From Candidatus Heimdallarchaeota archaeon (GTDB taxonomy: Archaea; Asgardarchaeota; Heimdallarchaeia; JABLTI01): DNA of 60,251 bases. Shown piece after piece: positions 18,559 to 25,404 of the stretch. Made by a program: the position numbers and the translations under genes. Within the stretch, counting starts at the first letter, position 1. Every line of letters begins with the position of its first letter. Location: assembly GCA_019058275.1 (NCBI GenBank), contig JAHLVW010000051.1, forward strand, positions 1 through 60,251. The letters run 5' to 3'. The notes beneath the pieces are model-generated. The model worked only from the letters and a program-made list of their open reading frames with translations, was not told the origin of the DNA and did not search any database.

Positions 18559-18711
18559 CTAAAATCTTTGAATTTTTTTTCTGTTACAATAAAAACAGAA
18601 TTGAGGTTTGTCAGGATCTAGAATGTTTTGTTTGTCTATTTTTGTTCCACACTCTACACAGATCATATCTATGTCATTGTTGAATAAATAGACTGGTTCT
18701 ACATTATTCAT
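18559..18711 (-). CDS. Small zinc-finger protein (50 aa), absent from ORF track
   Basis: MNNVEPVYLFNNDIDMICVECGTKIDKQNILDPDKPQFCFYCNRKKIQRF*; two CxxC; GGTGA SD 6 nt before ATG. Confidence 0.65.
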   Translation of the reverse strand: MNNVEPVYLFNNDIDMICVECGTKIDKQNILDPDKPQFCFYCNRKKIQRF

Positions 18712-19209
18712 TAATATTCACCAAAAGTTACTCACCTCGTATTCAATGAAGCATACAAATAGGATTGGTATTTGACAATATGACGAAACCGTTAACCAAA
18801 GTGTGGGTCACATACTACATGAATAATCAGGAAGCGAACTTTTTTTTAAACCCAATTTATATATTAAAGGTCGACTTTTCTTCAAGTATAATATCTCAAG
18901 AGTCTATTTAAACTCTTGTGCAAGTCATTTATAAAGTATATAAATGTTTTAAAAGATTAAACGCTAAATGATTAATTTAATAAAAAATATTTTCAAATAA
19001 ATAATCTATTAAAAGAAATTATCTAAATCAGACTTGTACATTATGGTTAATTTTAATAAAAAAACTTTATTCTAAACAAGAGTAATAAGTAATACTTTGT
19101 TTAAAGACAAAATTACCTAGAAAATGAAAGAAGCGTTAAAAAAATTTTATATCTGATAATGCGATTATCATTAATGTAGCTTTTAATTAAAAAAGCGGAG
19201 TTTATTAAA

Positions 19210-20049
19210 ATGGGGAAAAAAATAATTTCATTTTTAGTTATTCTAGGTTTAGTTAGTATTACTTTAACCTATAATACAATGAATGTATCAGCTCTACCAA
19301 GTCCGGATTATATCATTGATGACTTTAGTGGCTTTTCAAGTTACTATGATACAGATCTTGTGAATAGTACATTAAGTGAATCAGAAATTAATTTGGTTCA
19401 TAATAATGAAGAGGGTGAAACTGCTCGGGAAATATTCTTCAATGGTTTTGGTGAAATTGATGATTATTATGATTTTAATCTAGAGCTTTCAATTAATTAT
19501 ATCTATACAGGTTCTATGCTAACGCAAGTAAGTTTGATGTTAGGTAGTTATTATTTTGAGGATGGAACTTATGATGAAGAAACTCTAAGTGGATATAGAG
19601 ATATTTGCACTTGTGGTATTTTTGATGCTTAGTCAGCTAAAGTAGGAAAATACTATGTAAATGCACAACATGGGATAATAGAGCAATTTGATACACCTTC
19701 TGGTACTCTTTCACCTTCAGGCACTCTCCAATTCAAAATAGCTAGAACAAATAATATATTAAATCTATGTATTCTAAAAAGTGGTGTAATTCAAATTCAA
19801 CATCAATGGACAAAGGGCGTGTCAAGACCCTTAAGCTACCTCTATCTTGCTATGAGCATTGATCCAAATTACTGTACCTACACCGAAGTAACCTTTACAT
19901 TAATACTTGGAGAATTATATGCTGATTCAACTGATAGTGGTTCGATACCTCCTACAGTATCACTCGGTTTAACAGGTAATGTTATCTGTTTATTTGTTAT
20001 TTTTAATCTTAGTGTGATTCTATATGTGAGAAAAACGAGAAAGTATTAA
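19210..20049 (+). pseudogene. Secreted, C-terminally anchored protein with in-frame TAG (19630-19632)
   Basis: Signal peptide; frame continues IFDA*SAKVGKYYV... into 19819-20049; C-terminal TM + basic tail. Confidence 0.75.
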
Positions 20050-20255
20050 TTAAAATTATTGTTTTTCTCTTTTGTTACTTTTTTTTCTGATTTTCAAATT
20101 CCATACTGTTGTTTTTTATTTATTAATTCGAGATACTAGTAATGCTATATGTGAAATCTTTTGACAGAAATTGAATTTAATAAGAAATAATAAGTGATGA
20201 TATTCCAGTTATTTTGCATCTATGTGTTAGAGCTTTTTTGAATTATTGGAAATTT

Positions 20256-20312
20256 CAAGATTTTAAAAAATGGTTAAAAAAGAAAGGAACCTTATGGTCA
20301 ACAAAGAAATGA
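20256..20312 (+). repeat. Direct repeat copy 2 (displaced NUDIX 3' end)
   Basis: Encodes QDFKKWLKKKGTLWSTKK* versus QDFKKWLKKKETFWSNKK* in the gene. Confidence 0.85.
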
Positions 20313-20322
20313 AGGGAAAAAA

Positions 20323-20811
20323 GTGACTGAAATAGAAATCCGTGAGTTAAAAGAAGAAGATATAGTCCCTTGTGCAGAAATGACAATAAAATCATTTCCA
20401 TGGACAGCCTTCGGATTAAAAATGGAAAGAGCAAAGAAATTCTTCAAAGATAGATTAGGAATAGAGTTAATTTTTGTAGCAGTTCATCAAAATGAACCAG
20501 TTGGATACATTACCATTAAAAGAGACATTATGTTTGCAAATTATATAAGAAGAATGGTAGTAAGGGAAGACATGAGAAGTAAAGGAATAAAGGCGAAACT
20601 AATGAGATATGTAGAAGAGCTAGCATACTCGAGTGGATTGCAAAACGTTTTCCTATTAACAACAACGACGAATGTAAAAGCAATAAAATTCTATTTAGAA
20701 AATGGTTATCAAATAGTAGGGAAAATACAGGATTTTGTCAAAAGAGGAATGGATGAGTACATTCTATGGAAATCAAAGGGAACGGTAGATGATTTTAAAC
20801 TATATGATTAG
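20323..20811 (+). CDS. GNAT-family N-acetyltransferase
   Basis: VVREDMRSKGI motif A; NVKAIKFYLENGY motif B. Confidence 0.85.
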   Translation: MTEIEIRELKEEDIVPCAEMTIKSFPWTAFGLKMERAKKFFKDRLGIELIFVAVHQNEPVGYITIKRDIMFANYIRRMVVREDMRSKGIKAKLMRYVEELAYSSGLQNVFLLTTTTNVKAIKFYLENGYQIVGKIQDFVKRGMDEYILWKSKGTVDDFKLYD

Positions 20812-21319
20812 CAATAATATTGACTGGAAATCTTTTGCCAAAAAAAGGATTTTTTGTAGAAAAATTTGGGAGAAAAATCTTTTTTATAGTACCGACAGAA
20901 AAGGATTAGTGTTAAGAGCAGAAAAAAGAAAAGTCTCCCCAAAATGAATGCAGCAATTTAAGCGCAGAGAGAGCGAAATGGTGGAGGACTGACTGAAGAA
21001 CGAGTTTGGGAAAAAAACGGAGACCAATTTTCAATTCAAATCCCAGCTCATTTCCTTCTAAAGAATAATCTGAAAAAAAGTATTTAAAAACCTCCTTTCT
21101 TGTCATTTACACACTTTTGAAACAAGTATACTTTCTGGGAATTGACATTTTGAAAAAAATGTTGAAAAATCCATGAAAAAACGAAAATTGTTAGGTTTAT
21201 ATAATCAAAACAAAATCAACCAGAAAAAGCTTGTTATGTGCGTTTTCTTTGCTAGTTTTTTCTTTTAATACCTATAACAATAATTTACTTTTGATAATTA
21301 TATGGAGACACAATGAAGA

Positions 21320-21460
21320 ATGAAAAAATTAAACACAAAAGTAGTCACATTAGCAATAATAATTCTATCACTACTTGCTGTAGGCGGAGTAGGTATTAAA
21401 CAAGCAGTATCACCTAGCGGATTTGGACAAGGCGATGCTGGAACTGGTGGTGGCGGATAG
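21320..21460 (+). CDS. Small secreted peptide (46 aa) with Gly-rich C-terminus, absent from ORF track
   Basis: MKKLNTKVVTLAIIILSLLAVGGVGIKQAVSPSGFGQGDAGTGGGG*; basic N-region and hydrophobic H-region; upstream GGAG; hairpin + T-run at the end. Confidence 0.8.
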   Translation: MKKLNTKVVTLAIIILSLLAVGGVGIKQAVSPSGFGQGDAGTGGGG

Positions 21461-21482
21461 CTACCATTCCGCCATATTTTTT
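21451..21482 (+). terminator. Hairpin + T-tract between peptide gene and convergent regulator
   Basis: TGGCGGA-N10-TCCGCCA followed by TATTTTTT. Confidence 0.55.
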
Positions 21483-23217
21483 AAAGAATCCATTTCTTTT
21501 TCTCAAAATCATACAAATCAATGTATGGTACGTAACGTAATAAACAGCTTTTGATAGATAACATACTAAATTCTATTTCTTTCTCTTCAAGTATCTTAGA
21601 AATTAGATCAGATGTTGAATCTTTATAATTTAAGCCATTAATGCTCAAATATAGCTCCTCATAAGAATTCAATATTACAATCCAACCAAATACAGAAAGA
21701 CTGTCAACTAATCTAATAATTGAATCTGAATTAGGGTCACATTTTAATATAATCATCAATTGATCATGTGAATTCAATATTGAGGGAGATATTGATATAC
21801 GATAATCTAATAATCCTTTTTCTAACGCTTCATTCTGCAGTTTGTTAAAGAAATTTGTAGCTTCTAAAGTGTCATTTGGATCAATATTATTGTTTAATAA
21901 AAAGGCATTCAACTCAGACATCCATACTCCATAGTACCCTTTTGTAATAATCGATTTTGAGATCAATATTGATAAGAATTCTAGCAATCTTTGATCAAAT
22001 ACAATTTCTTCCTTGGATTCAGAAGAGAATTTCTCTTTACTATTCCAGAGTATGAATTTCTGAATAGGTAATTTGTTGTTAATTAATTTATCGAAATTTG
22101 ATATAGTAGGTTTAATTTTAGGATGAACGAAGGATGTTCTGTATAATTTATTCTGAATTGGTTTAAGCTCAAAAGAAAATATCATTTTATCGTTTACAAA
22201 CTTATCTAACCTAAAGGATAAATTATCAATAATTGAATGAGGGCAATGAATTACAGAGTATAAATAATTATAATCATTATCTTCACCATCAAATAATTCG
22301 AAGATGTAGCGATTCTTTAGTAAGTCCTTAGCAAGTTCTTCTCTTTCTGAAACTTTGTTTTTATCAAGTTTTATTAACAGCAAATAAGTATGTAGACCTA
22401 ATGCTTGCCAGTTAAGTTCCTTTCTCCATGATGCATTATATCGAGAAACAATTTTTGTTAGATGTTTTGTAACAGTAGAATGATTCATTTGCAAATTTCT
22501 ACCAATAGCTACTGCTGTACTATTATGACCAATATTGATAAGTTCATTAATGACAATAATAGTGGAATCTTTAAATTGTATAGGTGCGACCATTTCCTCA
22601 GGAGACGAAGATAGATAGCGAGAAAAGTCATTGATAAGCTCCTCAGAATCTATCGCTTCATAAGGAATATCTTCGATAAAATGCATGAAAGTATTAAAAA
22701 TCAGTTTATAGGTTATGTTTTGATTAACAATTGTTGTTAATAAAGAATCAATTTCTGCAATTGGATAGAAACTTGTCATAGGATCTTTGTCAGGAGGATA
22801 AAGGATTTTGGCTTTTAAAATTTGGAATTCAGACTCGAAGGATTTACCTTCATATTTTTTTTGAAGATATGTTAAAGCCATGATGTTGACAAAAAGATTT
22901 GAAACCTCTAAAATAGATTCTTCCTGTAATGTTGTAGAGAAGAAGAGCAACATGCTTTCTCGAATTGTTATAAATTCTGAAAATTTTCTCTTAGTCAATT
23001 CCGGTTGAATAGTATCCAACCAATTTGCAAAAATTATCTTATTATTATCTCTCTTCACACCAAAAGTAAATCCAAATTCTGGAGCATCGCCAATTTCTAT
23101 AATAATATCTGAGAGCTGTCGCTGTAAATCCCATTTAGTTTCCTCAATAATAGAAGAAAGAACCTTTTCCATTCCCTCTCGGATAGCCTTAGGAGTAAGG
23201 GGGAATTTGAACTTCAT
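21481..23217 (-). CDS. Large regulator: N-terminal putative sensor domain + tandem Lrp/AsnC-like wHTH-RAM units
   Basis: HTH TAVAIGRNLQMNHSTVTKHLTKI followed by LNWQALGLHTYLLLI (Lrp-type linker); second degenerate unit in the C-terminal third. Confidence 0.65.
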   Translation of the reverse strand: MKFKFPLTPKAIREGMEKVLSSIIEETKWDLQRQLSDIIIEIGDAPEFGFTFGVKRDNNKIIFANWLDTIQPELTKRKFSEFITIRESMLLFFSTTLQEESILEVSNLFVNIMALTYLQKKYEGKSFESEFQILKAKILYPPDKDPMTSFYPIAEIDSLLTTIVNQNITYKLIFNTFMHFIEDIPYEAIDSEELINDFSRYLSSSPEEMVAPIQFKDSTIIVINELINIGHNSTAVAIGRNLQMNHSTVTKHLTKIVSRYNASWRKELNWQALGLHTYLLLIKLDKNKVSEREELAKDLLKNRYIFELFDGEDNDYNYLYSVIHCPHSIIDNLSFRLDKFVNDKMIFSFELKPIQNKLYRTSFVHPKIKPTISNFDKLINNKLPIQKFILWNSKEKFSSESKEEIVFDQRLLEFLSILISKSIITKGYYGVWMSELNAFLLNNNIDPNDTLEATNFFNKLQNEALEKGLLDYRISISPSILNSHDQLMIILKCDPNSDSIIRLVDSLSVFGWIVILNSYEELYLSINGLNYKDSTSDLISKILEEKEIEFSMLSIKSCLLRYVPYIDLYDFEKKKWIL

Positions 23218-23409: not shown

Positions 23410-23994
23410 ATGGCAGGTGAAAGCCCCGAAATACAACTAGCACAAGATGTAATGACGTTGTATAGAGGGGCAGAATTAAGATTCTTTCAGAGATTGAACT
23501 TACGAGAAGGACAAGTTGTACTGGATTTTGGTTGCAGAATGGGAAACTATACCATTCCAGTAGTAGAAATAGTCGGAAAAACAGGGAGAATCTATGCTCT
23601 AGATGTAGATCATAGAGCAGTAAATGAAGTGATAGCAAGAGCAGGAAAATTCGGATTAGAGAATATTGTACCAATGAAAACAGAAGGGGAGCTGGAAGTA
23701 GACTTACCAAATAAGTCAGTAGATGTAATCCTGTTCTTTGATGTAATATACCCAATGTGTAAAAATAAAGGAATAAAACGATACACAACACTCTTGAAAG
23801 AATTCAAAAGAATAATGAGAGAAAGATGAATACTAATCACACTATTTGATCATCTAAGAGAGCTAAATGTTGCAGTGGATGAAGTGATAGAAATAACAGC
23901 AATTAAATTAAAATATGCAGGAGAACTAAAAACGGAATTATTACATTGGGATAGTCTGAAAGAAGGGATAGTTAATATTTTTGTCAAAAAATAG
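23410..23994 (+). pseudogene. Class I SAM-dependent methyltransferase with in-frame TGA (23827-23829)
   Basis: VLDFGCRMG motif I, IYALDVD, SVDVILF; frame continues KRIMRER*ILITLF...NIFVKK*; the stop sits at the usual Gly of RxLKPGG. Confidence 0.8.
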
Positions 23995-24342: not shown

Positions 24343-25404
24343 ATGAAAGTAAAACTATGCTTACTAAATCTGGCACCCGTACAATTATTTTATTCTCTTT
24401 TGACTCCATATCTTTTAGGAATTAGTAGGATTTTGCCAAAAAAAATTATGTTTGTTTTTTTCAATGGCAGATATTTAGTGTTCTATTGGTATAGAAAAGG
24501 AAATGTTCAATTTTTTACAGCTTCTTTCAACAAATGGAATAATTTTAGCTGGCTTTTAGTCTTAATCACATTAGGTACTCTAATAGCTATTGGGTTAATT
24601 TTTTATGCAAGTATTTTACAACACAAACTTGATAATTCTTCTTATGAAAGGCATCTAAATAATAGGTATGTTGAAAAATATCATGTTTTTTCCTTTATTG
24701 GTGGAGTTTTAGGTTCCATTGTTACTTTGACCTTCATTCCATTTGCTAGTTGGGTTAAGGAGGAGGGCAATTTACTCACCTCTGTCGGTTTTAGCACTTA
24801 TTTTTGGAAGCTAAGATTTTTTGGATTCTACATTTCACTTGGATTTTTTATCTTTGTTGCTATTTGGTCGCTTAATAATTTCAGTTATTATCAACCTAAA
24901 CCGATTTATGGAACTGAAAGTTCTAGAAGGTTATCTGATCTTGCTAATGTACGTAGTCCAAACTTCATTCTGCATAATCTTGATGATACCCCTTTTCCAA
25001 TTCCTTCCAGACTGTTATACTTGTTTTTTGAGAAAGGATCTGATTTTAAGGAGAGGTTTTTACCGCCAGGTCATCAGTTTGTTTTTGTTAACAGCGAAAT
25101 AATTCTCTATATGGATAAAAATCACACAAACCATCTTCTTAACAAAGGTATTACCTCTAGATTCACTTGCTTTTATTGTGGTGAGGCACTTTCATTAGAG
25201 GACAAGATTTGTCTATACTGCTTTCAATCTCCTTTGCATTGTTCTGTTTGCAAACTTCCAATAAACAAAGATGAATTAATTAGTCAGTGTCCGAAATGTG
25301 GTGTTTATAGCCATAAGGATCATTTAGATGCCTGGATTCGTACTCAAAACAAATGTCCGTCTTGTTTACAAGAATTTTCTGTATCATGCAACAATCTAAC
25401 GTAG
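24343..25404 (+). CDS. Multi-pass membrane protein with C-terminal zinc ribbon and RING-like domain
   Basis: Several TMs; CFYC..CLYC then CSVC...CPKC...HKDHLDAWI...KCPSC. Confidence 0.75.
   Translation: MKVKLCLLNLAPVQLFYSLLTPYLLGISRILPKKIMFVFFNGRYLVFYWYRKGNVQFFTASFNKWNNFSWLLVLITLGTLIAIGLIFYASILQHKLDNSSYERHLNNRYVEKYHVFSFIGGVLGSIVTLTFIPFASWVKEEGNLLTSVGFSTYFWKLRFFGFYISLGFFIFVAIWSLNNFSYYQPKPIYGTESSRRLSDLANVRSPNFILHNLDDTPFPIPSRLLYLFFEKGSDFKERFLPPGHQFVFVNSEIILYMDKNHTNHLLNKGITSRFTCFYCGEALSLEDKICLYCFQSPLHCSVCKLPINKDELISQCPKCGVYSHKDHLDAWIRTQNKCPSCLQEFSVSCNNLT

What the first reader, a model, noticed from the sequence alone, without database searches (positions are those of the whole stretch)
21320..23217. 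Candidate peptide-signalling module: secreted Gly-tailed micropeptide convergent with a large sensor-regulator
Seen: an unannotated 46-aa ORF with a clear signal peptide and a short polar tail (KQAVSPSGFGQGDAGTGGGG), its own ~500-nt upstream region and a terminal hairpin. It ends 20 nt from the stop of a 578-aa HTH regulator that has an extra ~200-aa N-terminal domain. Established: a small exported pro-peptide beside a cytoplasmic DNA-binding receptor is the layout of RRNPP quorum-sensing systems (Rap-Phr, PlcR-PapR, AimR-AimP). Inference: an analogous but non-homologous archaeal system (no obvious TPRs; Lrp-like units instead), with the C-terminal residues as the mature signal. I know of no described Asgard equivalent.
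Basis: partly seen in the sequence, partly recalled or inferred. Interest (0 to 1): 0.85.

Follow-up and report, generated by a model that had tools for sequence, protein, structure and literature searches.

The report
Exported micropeptide paired with pseudo-protease regulator
A tiny exported-peptide gene and the large regulator-like protein next to it form a conserved, repeatedly duplicated and unusually fast-diverging pair in one family of Heimdall-group Asgard archaea; it looks like peptide cell-to-cell signalling of a kind not described in archaea, but secretion and binding are untested.

Summary
The 46-codon ORF (21320-21460, +) is a real gene. Nine orthologous loci carry it in the same convergent position, with dN/dS of 0.07-0.34.

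The 578-aa neighbour has no Pfam family. Its model is confident (pLDDT 87) and has two parts:
- an N-terminal zincin-peptidase-like domain that has lost the HExxH metal site;
- two fused Lrp/AsnC-type wHTH+RAM units.

The protein family is small: 129 clusters among 1.84 billion, found in 11 of 11 genomes of one archaeal family. Every one of its 29 surveyed loci has a peptide-family gene beside it. Four of the six copies in this genome do too. One of the other two is cut by a contig end.

Peptides share an almost invariant MKKxNPK-plus-hydrophobic export signal. Their acidic, Gly/Pro-rich tails vary and track the regulator clades.

In two roughly 90%-identical genomes, the regulator is only 44% identical. 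The tails of both the linked peptide gene and an unlinked second peptide gene changed in parallel. Within each genome those two tails are identical in protein but differ at 9-10 of 16 codons.

My best reading (about 50%) is an RRNPP-like but non-homologous peptide-signal and receptor-regulator system. Export, processing, uptake and binding are all untested. This scan has noted similar micropeptide plus double-Lrp pairs in other Asgard genomes.

The parts
21320..21460 (+). Pro-peptide gene (46 aa). Codons 1-26 give the export signal or membrane anchor (MKKxNxK plus a hydrophobic run ending in GG). Codons 27-46 give the variable tail with the conserved PSGFGQGD core.
   Evidence: (dN/dS 0.07-0.34).
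21140..21319 (+). Conserved promoter and leader of the peptide gene: TATA-like TTTTAATA at 21263-21270, a second TATA-like box at 21196-21204, and the GGAGAC Shine-Dalgarno at 21304-21309. This is the candidate operator region.
   Evidence: 77% mean column identity across 9 orthologues whose synonymous sites are saturated. One search gives the same layout in the paralogue promoters.
21450..21485 (+). GC-rich hairpin spanning the peptide stop codon (stem 21450-21457 / 21468-21475), followed by a T-run. It is probably a shared terminator of the two convergent genes.
   Evidence: The hairpin is present in all 9 orthologues with different stem sequences.
21481..23217 (-). 578-aa cytoplasmic regulator-like protein (whole gene).
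   Evidence: (AF2 pLDDT 87, pTM 0.79).
22582..23217 (-). N-terminal domain (residues 1-212) with a zincin (M1/thermolysin-like) peptidase fold. R86-E87 stands in place of HExxH and N111 in place of the third metal ligand. This is the proposed peptide-binding sensor.
   Evidence: Z 7.4-6.0; zincins dominate the top hits; Peptidase_M1 clusters, TM 0.57.
22123..22569 (-). First Lrp/AsnC-like unit (residues 217-365): winged HTH at about 217-268, then a RAM-type alpha/beta domain.
   Evidence: Lrp/AsnC regulators Z 8.9, 141-145 residues aligned; the wHTH is the most conserved part within orthologues.
21484..22122 (-). Second Lrp/AsnC-like unit (residues 366-578). Together with unit 1 it resembles the fused pseudo-dimer of NirDL.
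   Evidence: NirDL 4czc/4ch7, Z 15.5, 277-281 residues aligned over 217-578.

Best explanation
This is a peptide-signal and receptor-regulator module, working like an RRNPP system but built from unrelated parts.

Proposed mechanism:
1. The 46-aa pro-peptide is inserted or exported through its N-terminal Sec-type signal.
2. Its roughly 15-22-residue acidic, Gly/Pro-rich tail is released outside the cell.
3. At sufficient concentration the tail is taken up again; the genome has many Opp/Dpp-type binding proteins.
4. The tail binds the cytoplasmic 578-aa protein, most likely in the substrate groove of its catalytically dead zincin-like N-domain.
5. Binding changes how the fused double Lrp/AsnC body binds operators, including the conserved promoter of the peptide gene itself.

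Each genome carries several such pairs with different tails, which would act as separate channels. Related genomes carry divergent tail and regulator alleles, which would act as pherotypes.

Shown: the gene pair, its conservation, its duplication as a unit, the folds, the selection on the tail, and the parallel change of tail and regulator.

Inferred: export and cleavage, uptake, peptide binding, DNA binding and autoregulation.
For: 1. The peptide gene is real. Nine orthologous loci carry it with dN/dS 0.07-0.34 at dS around 1 or more. There are 122 peptide clusters in the 5.8-billion-protein set, all from Heimdall/Asgard MAGs.

2. The linkage is obligatory. All 29 regulator-family loci sampled from 12 genomes have a peptide gene within about 1.2 kb. 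So do 4 of the 6 copies in this genome; one of the other two is cut by a contig end. The pair stays together while the neighbouring genes change.

3. The peptide has the anatomy of a pro-peptide: a near-invariant signal and a hypervariable tail. The same tail occurs on at least 5 different signal sequences.

4. Regulator clades match tail classes and gene layout.
   - Tail distance tracks N-domain distance best: r 0.82, partial r 0.51, against 0.23 for the Lrp units.
   - The N-domain and wHTH are conserved among orthologues that share a tail but fully diverged between paralogues: ratios 3.1 and 4.1, against 1.7-1.8 for the RAM parts.

5. The receptor has a peptide-binding fold. The N-domain matches zincin peptidases in three searches. 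It lacks HExxH in all 33 members aligned.

6. The divergence pattern is pherotype-like. G085 is 90-91% identical to this window in the flanks. Identity falls to about 80% over the peptide promoter and signal, and to about 55% nt (44% aa) over the regulator.
   - An unlinked second peptide gene beside an M28 peptidase sits in 92-100% identical DNA, with its differences concentrated in the tail codons.
   - In each genome the two tails are 16/16 identical in protein, yet differ at 10/16 and 9/16 codons, all synonymous.
   - Between the two genomes both tails differ at the same 5 residues.

7. An uptake route exists: about 14 SBP_bac_5 matches over the Pfam cut-off. This is permissive only.
Against: - There is no direct evidence for export, cleavage, uptake, binding or DNA binding.
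- The hydrophobic stretch (18-20 residues) is long enough to be an uncleaved membrane anchor. The conserved A-x-A-P-like site has Pro at +1, which disfavours signal peptidase I at that exact bond.
- The Lrp/AsnC fold also occurs in enzymes (NirDL/AhbAB), so the fold alone does not prove a transcription factor. No HTH Pfam model passes its threshold.
- The N-domain fold matches are middling (Z 7.4, TM 0.57).
- Co-duplication and co-divergence of neighbouring genes is expected for any cis-linked regulator and target. The Mantel-type statistics use non-independent relatives.
- Some peptide genes are orphans, lying next to an M28 peptidase, an enolase, an LVIVD protein or a TPR protein. One paralogue in this genome (contig C38) has no detectable peptide.
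- The terminal Gly codons also form the 5' arm of the stop-codon hairpin. Part of the Gly-run conservation may therefore be an RNA constraint.
Confidence: 0.5

Rival explanations
1. One-way control. The large protein is a transcription factor that regulates the adjacent peptide gene, but the peptide is not its ligand. The exported tail acts elsewhere: on a membrane receptor, on other cells (kin discrimination, antagonism), or on the cell envelope. The regulator senses something else through its N-domain or RAM domains.
For: - Linkage and co-duplication of a regulator with its target gene are expected without any feedback.
- Lrp/AsnC proteins normally bind small metabolites in the RAM domain (established knowledge; fold).
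- Orphan peptide copies exist away from regulators.
Against: - The regulator allele, the linked tail and the unlinked tail change together between roughly 90%-identical genomes. That requires the tail to have a specific partner that co-varies with this locus.
- Tail divergence tracks the N-domain better than the rest of the protein.
- The tails are acidic and Gly/Pro-rich, not cationic or amphipathic like most antimicrobial peptides.
- The extra domain has a peptide-binding fold.
Confidence: 0.25
2. Uncleaved membrane micro-protein. The 46-aa product stays in the membrane as a type II signal-anchor with a short outside tail. It acts as a small membrane subunit or modulator, and the neighbouring protein only regulates it or is tethered by it.
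For: - The hydrophobic run is 18-20 residues, long enough to span a membrane.
- The cytoplasmic MKKxNPK is more conserved than a generic n-region needs to be.
- Pro follows the best AxA-like site.
Against: - Only about 7 residues would face the cytoplasm, and they are the same in all paralogues, so they cannot give pair specificity.
- The variable, selected part is the outside tail.
- The helix-breaking GG at the end of the hydrophobic run, followed by small residues, is typical of cleavable signals.
Confidence: 0.13
3. Maturation or enzyme pair. The large protein is not a regulator. It is a peptide-handling protein, such as a chaperone, a leader-recognising scaffold or an unusual peptidase or modifying enzyme, as NirDL is an enzyme built on the Lrp fold. 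It would process the neighbouring precursor in a RiPP-like logic.
For: - The best structural match of residues 217-578 is an enzyme, NirDL (Z 15.5).
- The N-domain has a peptidase fold with a retained Glu (E87).
- wHTH-like domains recognise leader peptides in RiPP pathways (established knowledge).
Against: - No metal ligands are present in any of the 33 members aligned.
- Identity to NirDL is only 11-12%, and there is no haem-pathway context.
- No radical-SAM, YcaO, cyclase or transporter genes are conserved nearby; only the pair itself is conserved.
- The precursor carries a Sec-type signal rather than a cytoplasmic leader, and its tail has no Cys.
- The wHTH has a typical recognition-helix pattern and is the most conserved segment.
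Confidence: 0.08

Closest known systems
RRNPP peptide quorum-sensing pairs of Bacillota and their phages (Rap-Phr, NprR-NprX, PlcR-PapR, PrgX-PrgQ, Rgg-SHP, AimR-AimP)
   Same: - A small gene for an exported pro-peptide with a conserved signal and a variable C-terminal part sits next to a cytoplasmic receptor-regulator.
- There are several diverged pairs per genome.
- Peptide and receptor co-diversify.
- Opp-type importers are present in the genome.
   Different: - The receptor has no TPR domain and no XRE-type HTH. It is a dead zincin-like domain plus two Lrp/AsnC units.
- The host is an Asgard archaeon.
- The predicted tail is longer (about 15-22 aa) and acidic and Gly/Pro-rich.
- Export, import and binding have not been shown.
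Lrp/AsnC (FFRP) transcription regulators of archaea and bacteria
   Same: Residues 211-365 superpose on full-length Lrp/AsnC proteins (wHTH plus RAM; Z 8.9, 141-145 residues). Weak sequence matches to LrpA and TFE fall on the wHTH.
   Different: - No Pfam AsnC/Lrp model passes its threshold.
- Two units are fused in one chain.
- A 212-residue zincin-like domain is added.
- The family is confined to one archaeal family.
NirDL / AhbA-AhbB sirohaem decarboxylases
   Same: Fused tandem Lrp-like architecture. This is the best structural match of residues 217-578 (Z 15.5).
   Different: Identity is 11-12%. There is no haem-biosynthesis neighbourhood and an extra N-domain. A functional relation is unlikely.
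Zincin domains coupled to repressors (ImmA/IrrE with ImmR/DdrO; BlaR1/MecR1 with BlaI/MecI); M1 and thermolysin-type gluzincins
   Same: A zincin-fold domain is functionally tied to a winged-helix regulator. The spacing of the edge strand (G53), the 'active-site' helix (R86-E87) and the third-ligand helix (N111) mirrors GxMEN...HExxH...E of the M1 family.
   Different: All metal ligands are missing, so it is a pseudo-peptidase. It is fused to the regulator rather than cleaving it.
Pherotype polymorphism at bacterial signalling loci (comQXP of Bacillus, agrBDC of Staphylococcus, comCD of Streptococcus)
   Same: The signal and receptor genes are far more divergent than the flanking genome between close relatives, and signal and receptor change together.
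   Different: The proteins are unrelated. Only two genomes could be compared in detail here, and no population sample was available.
Micropeptide plus double-Lrp pairs noted earlier by this scan in other Asgard genomes (e1-5394788, e1-5455375, e1-5416501, e1-5416224, e1-5504728, e1-3927904)
   Same: A tiny export-tagged peptide gene lies beside a large fused Lrp-like protein, lineage-specific and repeatedly duplicated.
   Different: These are unpublished AI notes on other DNA, and I did not check them. Word-based look-ups found no look-alike of this locus in other genomes. The dead-zincin N-domain and the pherotype-like pattern are specific to what was tested here.

Membership tests
RRNPP receptor-peptide systems | Receptor binds the peptide through a TPR-type superhelical domain | tested here: not met
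   No TPR Pfam hit on the 578-aa protein or on any of 16 relatives. The model shows a zincin-like domain plus two Lrp/AsnC units.
RRNPP receptor-peptide systems | Small exported pro-peptide gene adjacent to the receptor gene | tested here: met
   Found at all 29 surveyed family loci. Signal-like N-terminus and variable tail. Export itself is inferred from sequence.
RRNPP receptor-peptide systems | Mature peptide is re-imported (Opp) and binds the cytoplasmic receptor | not testable with these tools
   About 14 SBP_bac_5 matches over the cut-off show that a possible route exists. Binding needs biochemistry.
Lrp/AsnC (FFRP) regulators | N-terminal winged HTH followed by a RAM alpha/beta domain | tested here: met
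   Fold: Z 8.9, 141-145 residues aligned over model residues 211-365 with PH1519, a halophilic Lrp, AsnC and others. Foldseek probability about 1.
Lrp/AsnC (FFRP) regulators | Sequence membership (Pfam HTH_AsnC-type / AsnC_trans_reg over the gathering score) | tested here: not met
   No such hit. Only LrpA at E 0.025 and TFE at E 0.003 with the family profile.
Lrp/AsnC (FFRP) regulators | Sequence-specific DNA binding | not testable with these tools
   The wHTH is the most conserved segment among orthologues, and a conserved promoter lies next door. This is indirect only.
NirDL/AhbAB sirohaem decarboxylase | Fused or heterodimeric pair of Lrp-like units | tested here: met
   Z 15.5, 277-281 residues aligned over 217-578.
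NirDL/AhbAB sirohaem decarboxylase | Sequence relation and haem d1 / alternative haem pathway context | tested here: not met
   11-12% identity. No NirD-like hit in Pfam. Neighbours are GNAT, NUDIX and methyltransferase genes.
Zincin (gluzincin) metallopeptidases | Zincin catalytic-domain fold (mixed sheet, active-site helix, third-ligand helix) | tested here: met
   Zincins dominate the top VIA-align hits (M1, LTA4H, DPP III, thermolysin, LasB; Z 7.4-5). Selecase by Foldseek, probability 0.87. Peptidase_M1 clusters at TM 0.57. The scores are middling, but three searches agree.
Zincin (gluzincin) metallopeptidases | HExxH motif plus a third metal ligand | tested here: not met
   In none of the 33 members aligned is the motif intact. 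The position usually reads [RK]-E-x-x-x, and the third-ligand position is Asn in most (N111).
Sec-type cleavable signal peptide | Basic n-region, hydrophobic h-region, c-region with small residues at -3/-1, and cleavage | tested here: inconclusive
   The n- and h-regions are clear in all roughly 120 members. Candidate sites follow the GG, but the h-region is long and the best AxA-like site is followed by Pro. No predictor or experiment was available.

The most novel reading that the evidence does not exclude
Heimdall-group Asgard archaea run several orthogonal, pherotype-diversified peptide quorum-sensing channels. Each is made of a Sec-exported pro-peptide and a cytoplasmic receptor. The receptor recognises the mature tail in the substrate groove of a catalytically dead M1/thermolysin-like peptidase domain and passes the signal to a fused double Lrp/AsnC DNA-binding body. 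This would be the first peptide-based cell-cell communication system in archaea and a receptor class with no bacterial counterpart.
Probability: 0.45. Interest if true: 0.9.

Novelty: new variant of a known kind. Interest (0 to 1): 0.8.

Why it matters
I found no published peptide-based cell-to-cell signalling in archaea in the searchable literature. The archaeal quorum-sensing reports I know of involve acyl-homoserine-lactone-like or diketopiperazine molecules; that statement rests on my own knowledge.

Here there is a concrete, testable candidate in the Asgard lineage closest to eukaryotes. The ligands are defined short peptides that can be synthesised. The receptor is soluble and models with high confidence. 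A conserved promoter serves as a candidate DNA target, and natural cognate and non-cognate pairs exist within a single genome.

If confirmed, it would show three things:
- The logic of 'exported pro-peptide plus cytoplasmic receptor-regulator' evolved independently from RRNPP systems.
- A dead protease domain has been recruited as a peptide sensor.
- Uncultivated sediment archaea have social traits, including signal diversification between close relatives.

If the peptide is not the ligand, the pair is still a lineage-specific, fast-evolving regulator and secreted-peptide module. It deserves annotation, because current records call both genes hypothetical.

Tried and rejected
- Complex prediction (regulator alignment A1 with peptide residues 17-46) returned 'no answer' (runs 0.53, 0.01, 0.20). 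I do not use it either way.
- The look-up of sequencing runs listed no RNA holder, so expression could not be examined.
- The search for related loci failed with the family alignment because no stretch was conserved enough. With the single protein it found nothing in genome contigs. The genome search was used instead.
- RNAalifold on the MAFFT alignment of the 3' ends predicted no pairs because the indels misalign the stems. Folding each sequence alone showed the hairpin.
- Rfam gave only one sub-threshold snoRNA-like chance hit.
- Pfam and NCBIfam gave nothing for either protein.
- The ESM Atlas feature search of the peptide gave only unnamed clusters below 0.9.
- Literature searches found no description of this system.
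- Rejected readings of the peptide: lipoprotein (no Cys or lipobox), PGF-CTERM or archaeosortase substrate (the hydrophobic segment is N-terminal), type IV pilin-like class III signal (no [KR]-[GA] cleavage motif before the hydrophobic run), and double-glycine bacteriocin leader (the leader is hydrophobic and the GG lies inside it).
- Recent gene conversion as the cause of identical tails at the two loci. This is unlikely because 9-10 of 16 codons differ synonymously within a genome, more than between the orthologues (5 of 11 conserved codons).
Full report
**1. The observation**

A 46-codon ORF lies at 21320-21460 (+) and a 578-codon ORF at 21481-23217 (-). They are convergent, with 20 nt between their stops.

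The small product has three parts:
- a basic start (MKKxNxK);
- an 18-20-residue hydrophobic run ending in GG;
- a 20-residue polar tail with a PSGFGQGD core and a Gly run.

A GC hairpin has the stop codon in its loop (stem 21450-21457 / 21468-21475) and is followed by a T-run. All nine orthologous loci fold an equivalent hairpin although the stem sequences differ. It is therefore a conserved element, probably a shared terminator. Its 5' arm is made of the terminal Gly codons, so part of the Gly-run conservation may be an RNA constraint.

**2. The small gene is real**

The large protein has orthologues of 57-67% identity on metagenomic and MAG contigs. I fetched eight of them, on ten contigs. 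Every one has a 45-52-codon gene (two calls were over-extended to 81-90 codons) in the same convergent position, 17-69 nt after the stop. All encode the same kind of peptide.

Pairwise dN/dS is 0.07-0.34 while synonymous sites are near saturation.

The last ~190 nt upstream are 77% identical across these loci. They hold a GGAGAC ribosome-binding site, a TTTTAATA box about 55 nt before the start, and a second TATA-like box further up.

NCBI MAG records call the orthologues 'hypothetical protein', from Heimdallarchaeota or 'Asgard group' archaea.

**3. The large protein**

No Pfam or NCBIfam model passes its threshold. A profile of 16 relatives gives only weak matches of residues ~216-313 to TFE and LrpA.

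An AlphaFold2 model built on that alignment is confident (pLDDT 87, pTM 0.79).
- Residues 217-578 superpose on the fused double Lrp-like enzyme NirDL (Z 15.5, 277-281 residues).
- Residues 211-365 superpose on many full-length Lrp/AsnC regulators (Z ~8.9, 141-145 residues).

The N-terminal 212 residues were modelled alone (pLDDT 90). They match zincin metallopeptidase catalytic domains in three different searches:
- VIA-align against 48,161 chains: M1 aminopeptidases, LTA4 hydrolase, DPP III, thermolysin and LasB, Z 7.4-5, with zincins dominating the top hits.
- Foldseek: selecase, probability 0.87.
- ESM Atlas: Peptidase_M1 clusters, TM 0.57.

The scores are middling, but the agreement is striking. 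The spacing G53 (edge strand), R86-E87 ('active-site' helix) and N111 (next helix) mirrors GxMEN...HExxH...E of gluzincins. None of the 33 family members aligned has the His ligands.

The domain is therefore a pseudo-peptidase. It has a fold built to hold an extended peptide, without the catalytic metal. This agrees with an earlier first-reader note on the same gene (e1-5538114).

**4. Distribution and linkage**

The protein family is tiny. A profile search finds 129 of 1.84 billion cluster representatives, about 65 of them full-length. Among 400 genomes of the phylum it occurs in 11 of 11 genomes of the window's own family. It also appears in one genome of another family, whose contig copy is almost identical to one in a family member and so is probably mis-binned. 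There is one marginal hit.

This genome has six copies.

I built a peptide HMM from orthologues and paralogues and scanned all six frames.
- In this genome it finds seven peptide genes. Five lie beside four of the six large-gene copies (contigs C42, C69 twice, C117, C46).
- Of the other two large-gene copies, one (C68) is cut by a contig end. One (C38) has no peptide gene that I could find.
- In 29 family loci from eleven other genomes and this one, 27 have a clear peptide gene within 1.2 kb. One more has a copy cut by the contig end. The last has a divergent copy found by pattern.

Two layouts exist and follow the two deep clades of the regulator tree:
- convergent, just downstream, sometimes with a second copy ~100 nt upstream on the same strand;
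- divergent, ~200-450 nt or ~1.1 kb upstream.

The surrounding genes differ between paralogues and even between orthologues. For example, the 50-codon zinc-ribbon gene that lies between the peptide and the GNAT gene elsewhere sits at 18562-18711 in this window. Only the pair itself is constant.

**5. Anatomy of the peptide family**

A profile search finds 122 peptide clusters, all 43-83 residues and all from Heimdall/Asgard sources.

They share an almost invariant MKK[IVL]NPK start and a hydrophobic run. The tails of 15-25 residues are acidic and Gly/Pro-rich and fall into classes. Each class belongs to one regulator clade.

The tail of the window peptide occurs on at least five clearly different signal sequences. 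So the tail, and not only the signal, is the part being preserved.

**6. Co-variation**

*Across paired loci.* Across 23 regulator-peptide pairs, tail distance correlates with N-domain distance (r 0.82) more than with either Lrp unit (0.79, 0.71).
- The partial correlation with the N-domain, given the Lrp units, is 0.51.
- The reverse partial correlation is 0.23.
- The signal part correlates only ~0.55 with any domain.

These pairs are relatives, so the numbers are descriptive only.

*Within and between tail groups.* Among ten orthologues that share the tail core, the wHTH and N-domain are the best conserved parts (distances 0.17 and 0.24). The RAM parts are at 0.40-0.41. Against paralogues all parts are equally diverged, at ~0.70-0.75. 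This is the pattern expected of the segments that set DNA specificity and ligand specificity.

**7. A pherotype-like island**

Genome G085 is 90-91% identical to the window in flanking DNA on both sides. On the same contig, identity falls to about 80% over the peptide promoter and signal codons. It falls to about 55% nt over the regulator, which is 44% identical in protein over 397 residues. The break lies at about 21436. That regulator is still closest to the window's clade.

Both genomes also have a second, unlinked peptide gene, convergent with an M28/DUF4910 peptidase. The DNA there is 92-100% identical, and the differences are concentrated in the tail codons.
- Within each genome the two tails are identical in all 16 residues.
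- Yet they differ at 10 of 16 and 9 of 16 codons, all synonymous.
- Between the genomes both tails differ at the same five residues.
- The signal parts stay locus-specific.

Recent gene conversion does not explain this, because the synonymous differences within a genome exceed those between the orthologues.

The simplest reading is that the tail must match a partner that differs between the two genomes. The one component seen to differ in step is the adjacent regulator.

A third genome (G090) has three copies of one peptide. They show many synonymous differences and at most one amino-acid difference in the tail compared.

**8. Mechanism and rivals**

*Best reading (about 0.5).* The pro-peptide is exported. 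Its tail is released, re-imported and bound by the pseudo-zincin domain. The fused double-Lrp body then changes transcription, probably including that of the peptide gene. The genome has about 14 Opp/Dpp-type binding-protein matches over the cut-off, so a route for uptake exists.

*Nothing here shows export, cleavage, uptake, binding or DNA binding.*

*Rivals:*
- One-way control of a secreted peptide that acts elsewhere (0.25).
- An uncleaved membrane micro-protein (0.13).
- A peptide-processing or chaperone role for the large protein (0.08).

The co-folding job gave no verdict, and no RNA data were found. Both are listed under Tried and rejected.

**9. Comparison with known systems, and novelty**

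In logic the module works like RRNPP systems: an adjacent exported pro-peptide, a cytoplasmic receptor-regulator, several diverged pairs per genome, and co-diversification. It is not a member, because it has no TPR domain and no XRE-type HTH.

By fold it contains Lrp/AsnC units and a zincin domain. It fails the sequence criteria of the first and the catalytic criteria of the second.

The hypervariability resembles the pherotype polymorphism of comQXP, agr and comCD loci.

I found no published archaeal counterpart.

This scan has noted similar 'micropeptide plus double-Lrp' pairs in other Asgard genomes. It has also noted the paralogous loci of this genome. Those are unchecked AI notes and are not independent evidence. 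They do suggest that the theme is widespread in Asgard archaea.

I rate this a new variant of a known kind of system, with high interest, and with function still to be shown.

Noticed in passing
G000 contig C105:63747-64021 (L013:3748-4022) and G085:C295 (L065:3598-3735): A second, unlinked copy of the window's peptide has the same 16-residue tail and a different signal sequence. It is convergent with a 705-721-aa M28/DUF4910 peptidase that shows no obvious signal peptide. In G000 a further diverged peptide gene lies in tandem with it. The peptidase could be involved in turnover of the peptide, but this is untested.
   Followed up: partly
L060:3514-3693 (+) and L060:3752-6091 (-) (G086 contig C34): An orphan peptide-family gene is convergent with a 780-aa TPR protein (TPR_12, MalT-like TPR). 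A TPR protein beside such a peptide recalls RRNPP receptors. It may equally be coincidence.
   Followed up: no
window 18562-18711 (-): A 50-codon CxxC...CxxC zinc-ribbon gene lies here. In orthologous loci the same gene sits between the peptide gene and the GNAT gene. The corresponding ~1.8 kb (about 19094-20913) has no counterpart on the syntenic G085 contig.
   Followed up: partly
L007, L008, L009, L011, L018, L020, L021: about 90-115 nt upstream of the peptide start (alignment A4, columns 78-98): Most orthologous promoters carry a direct repeat, TGCACAA-N4-TGCACAA (period 11), between the two TATA-like boxes. The window has diverged here and keeps only TGTGCG. A [TA]GTGC[AG] box ~30 nt upstream of the TATA box recurs in many paralogue promoters. 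It is a candidate operator half-site.
   Followed up: partly
G019 contigs C25 and C58 (L039, L022): This is the only hit outside the window's family. Its regulator copy on C25 is nearly identical to one in G084 (tree branch lengths 0.002 and 0.016). These contigs are probably mis-binned, or else recently transferred.
   Followed up: no
G083 contigs C5:21771-21902, C10:7-138, C66:4-135, C76:1-114: The same peptide gene sits at four contig ends of one assembly. This suggests several near-identical copies that break the assembly.
   Followed up: no
window 24343-25404 (+): A 353-aa predicted membrane protein has a C-terminal RING-like double zinc finger. The Pfam hits (zf-RING_2, Prok-RING_1) are below threshold.
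   Followed up: no
window 23410-23829 (+): The gene divergent from the regulator here is a 139-aa SAM-methyltransferase-like ORF. Orthologous loci have an unrelated 249-aa gene in that position (no tblastn match in this genome). The upstream neighbour is therefore not conserved.
   Followed up: partly
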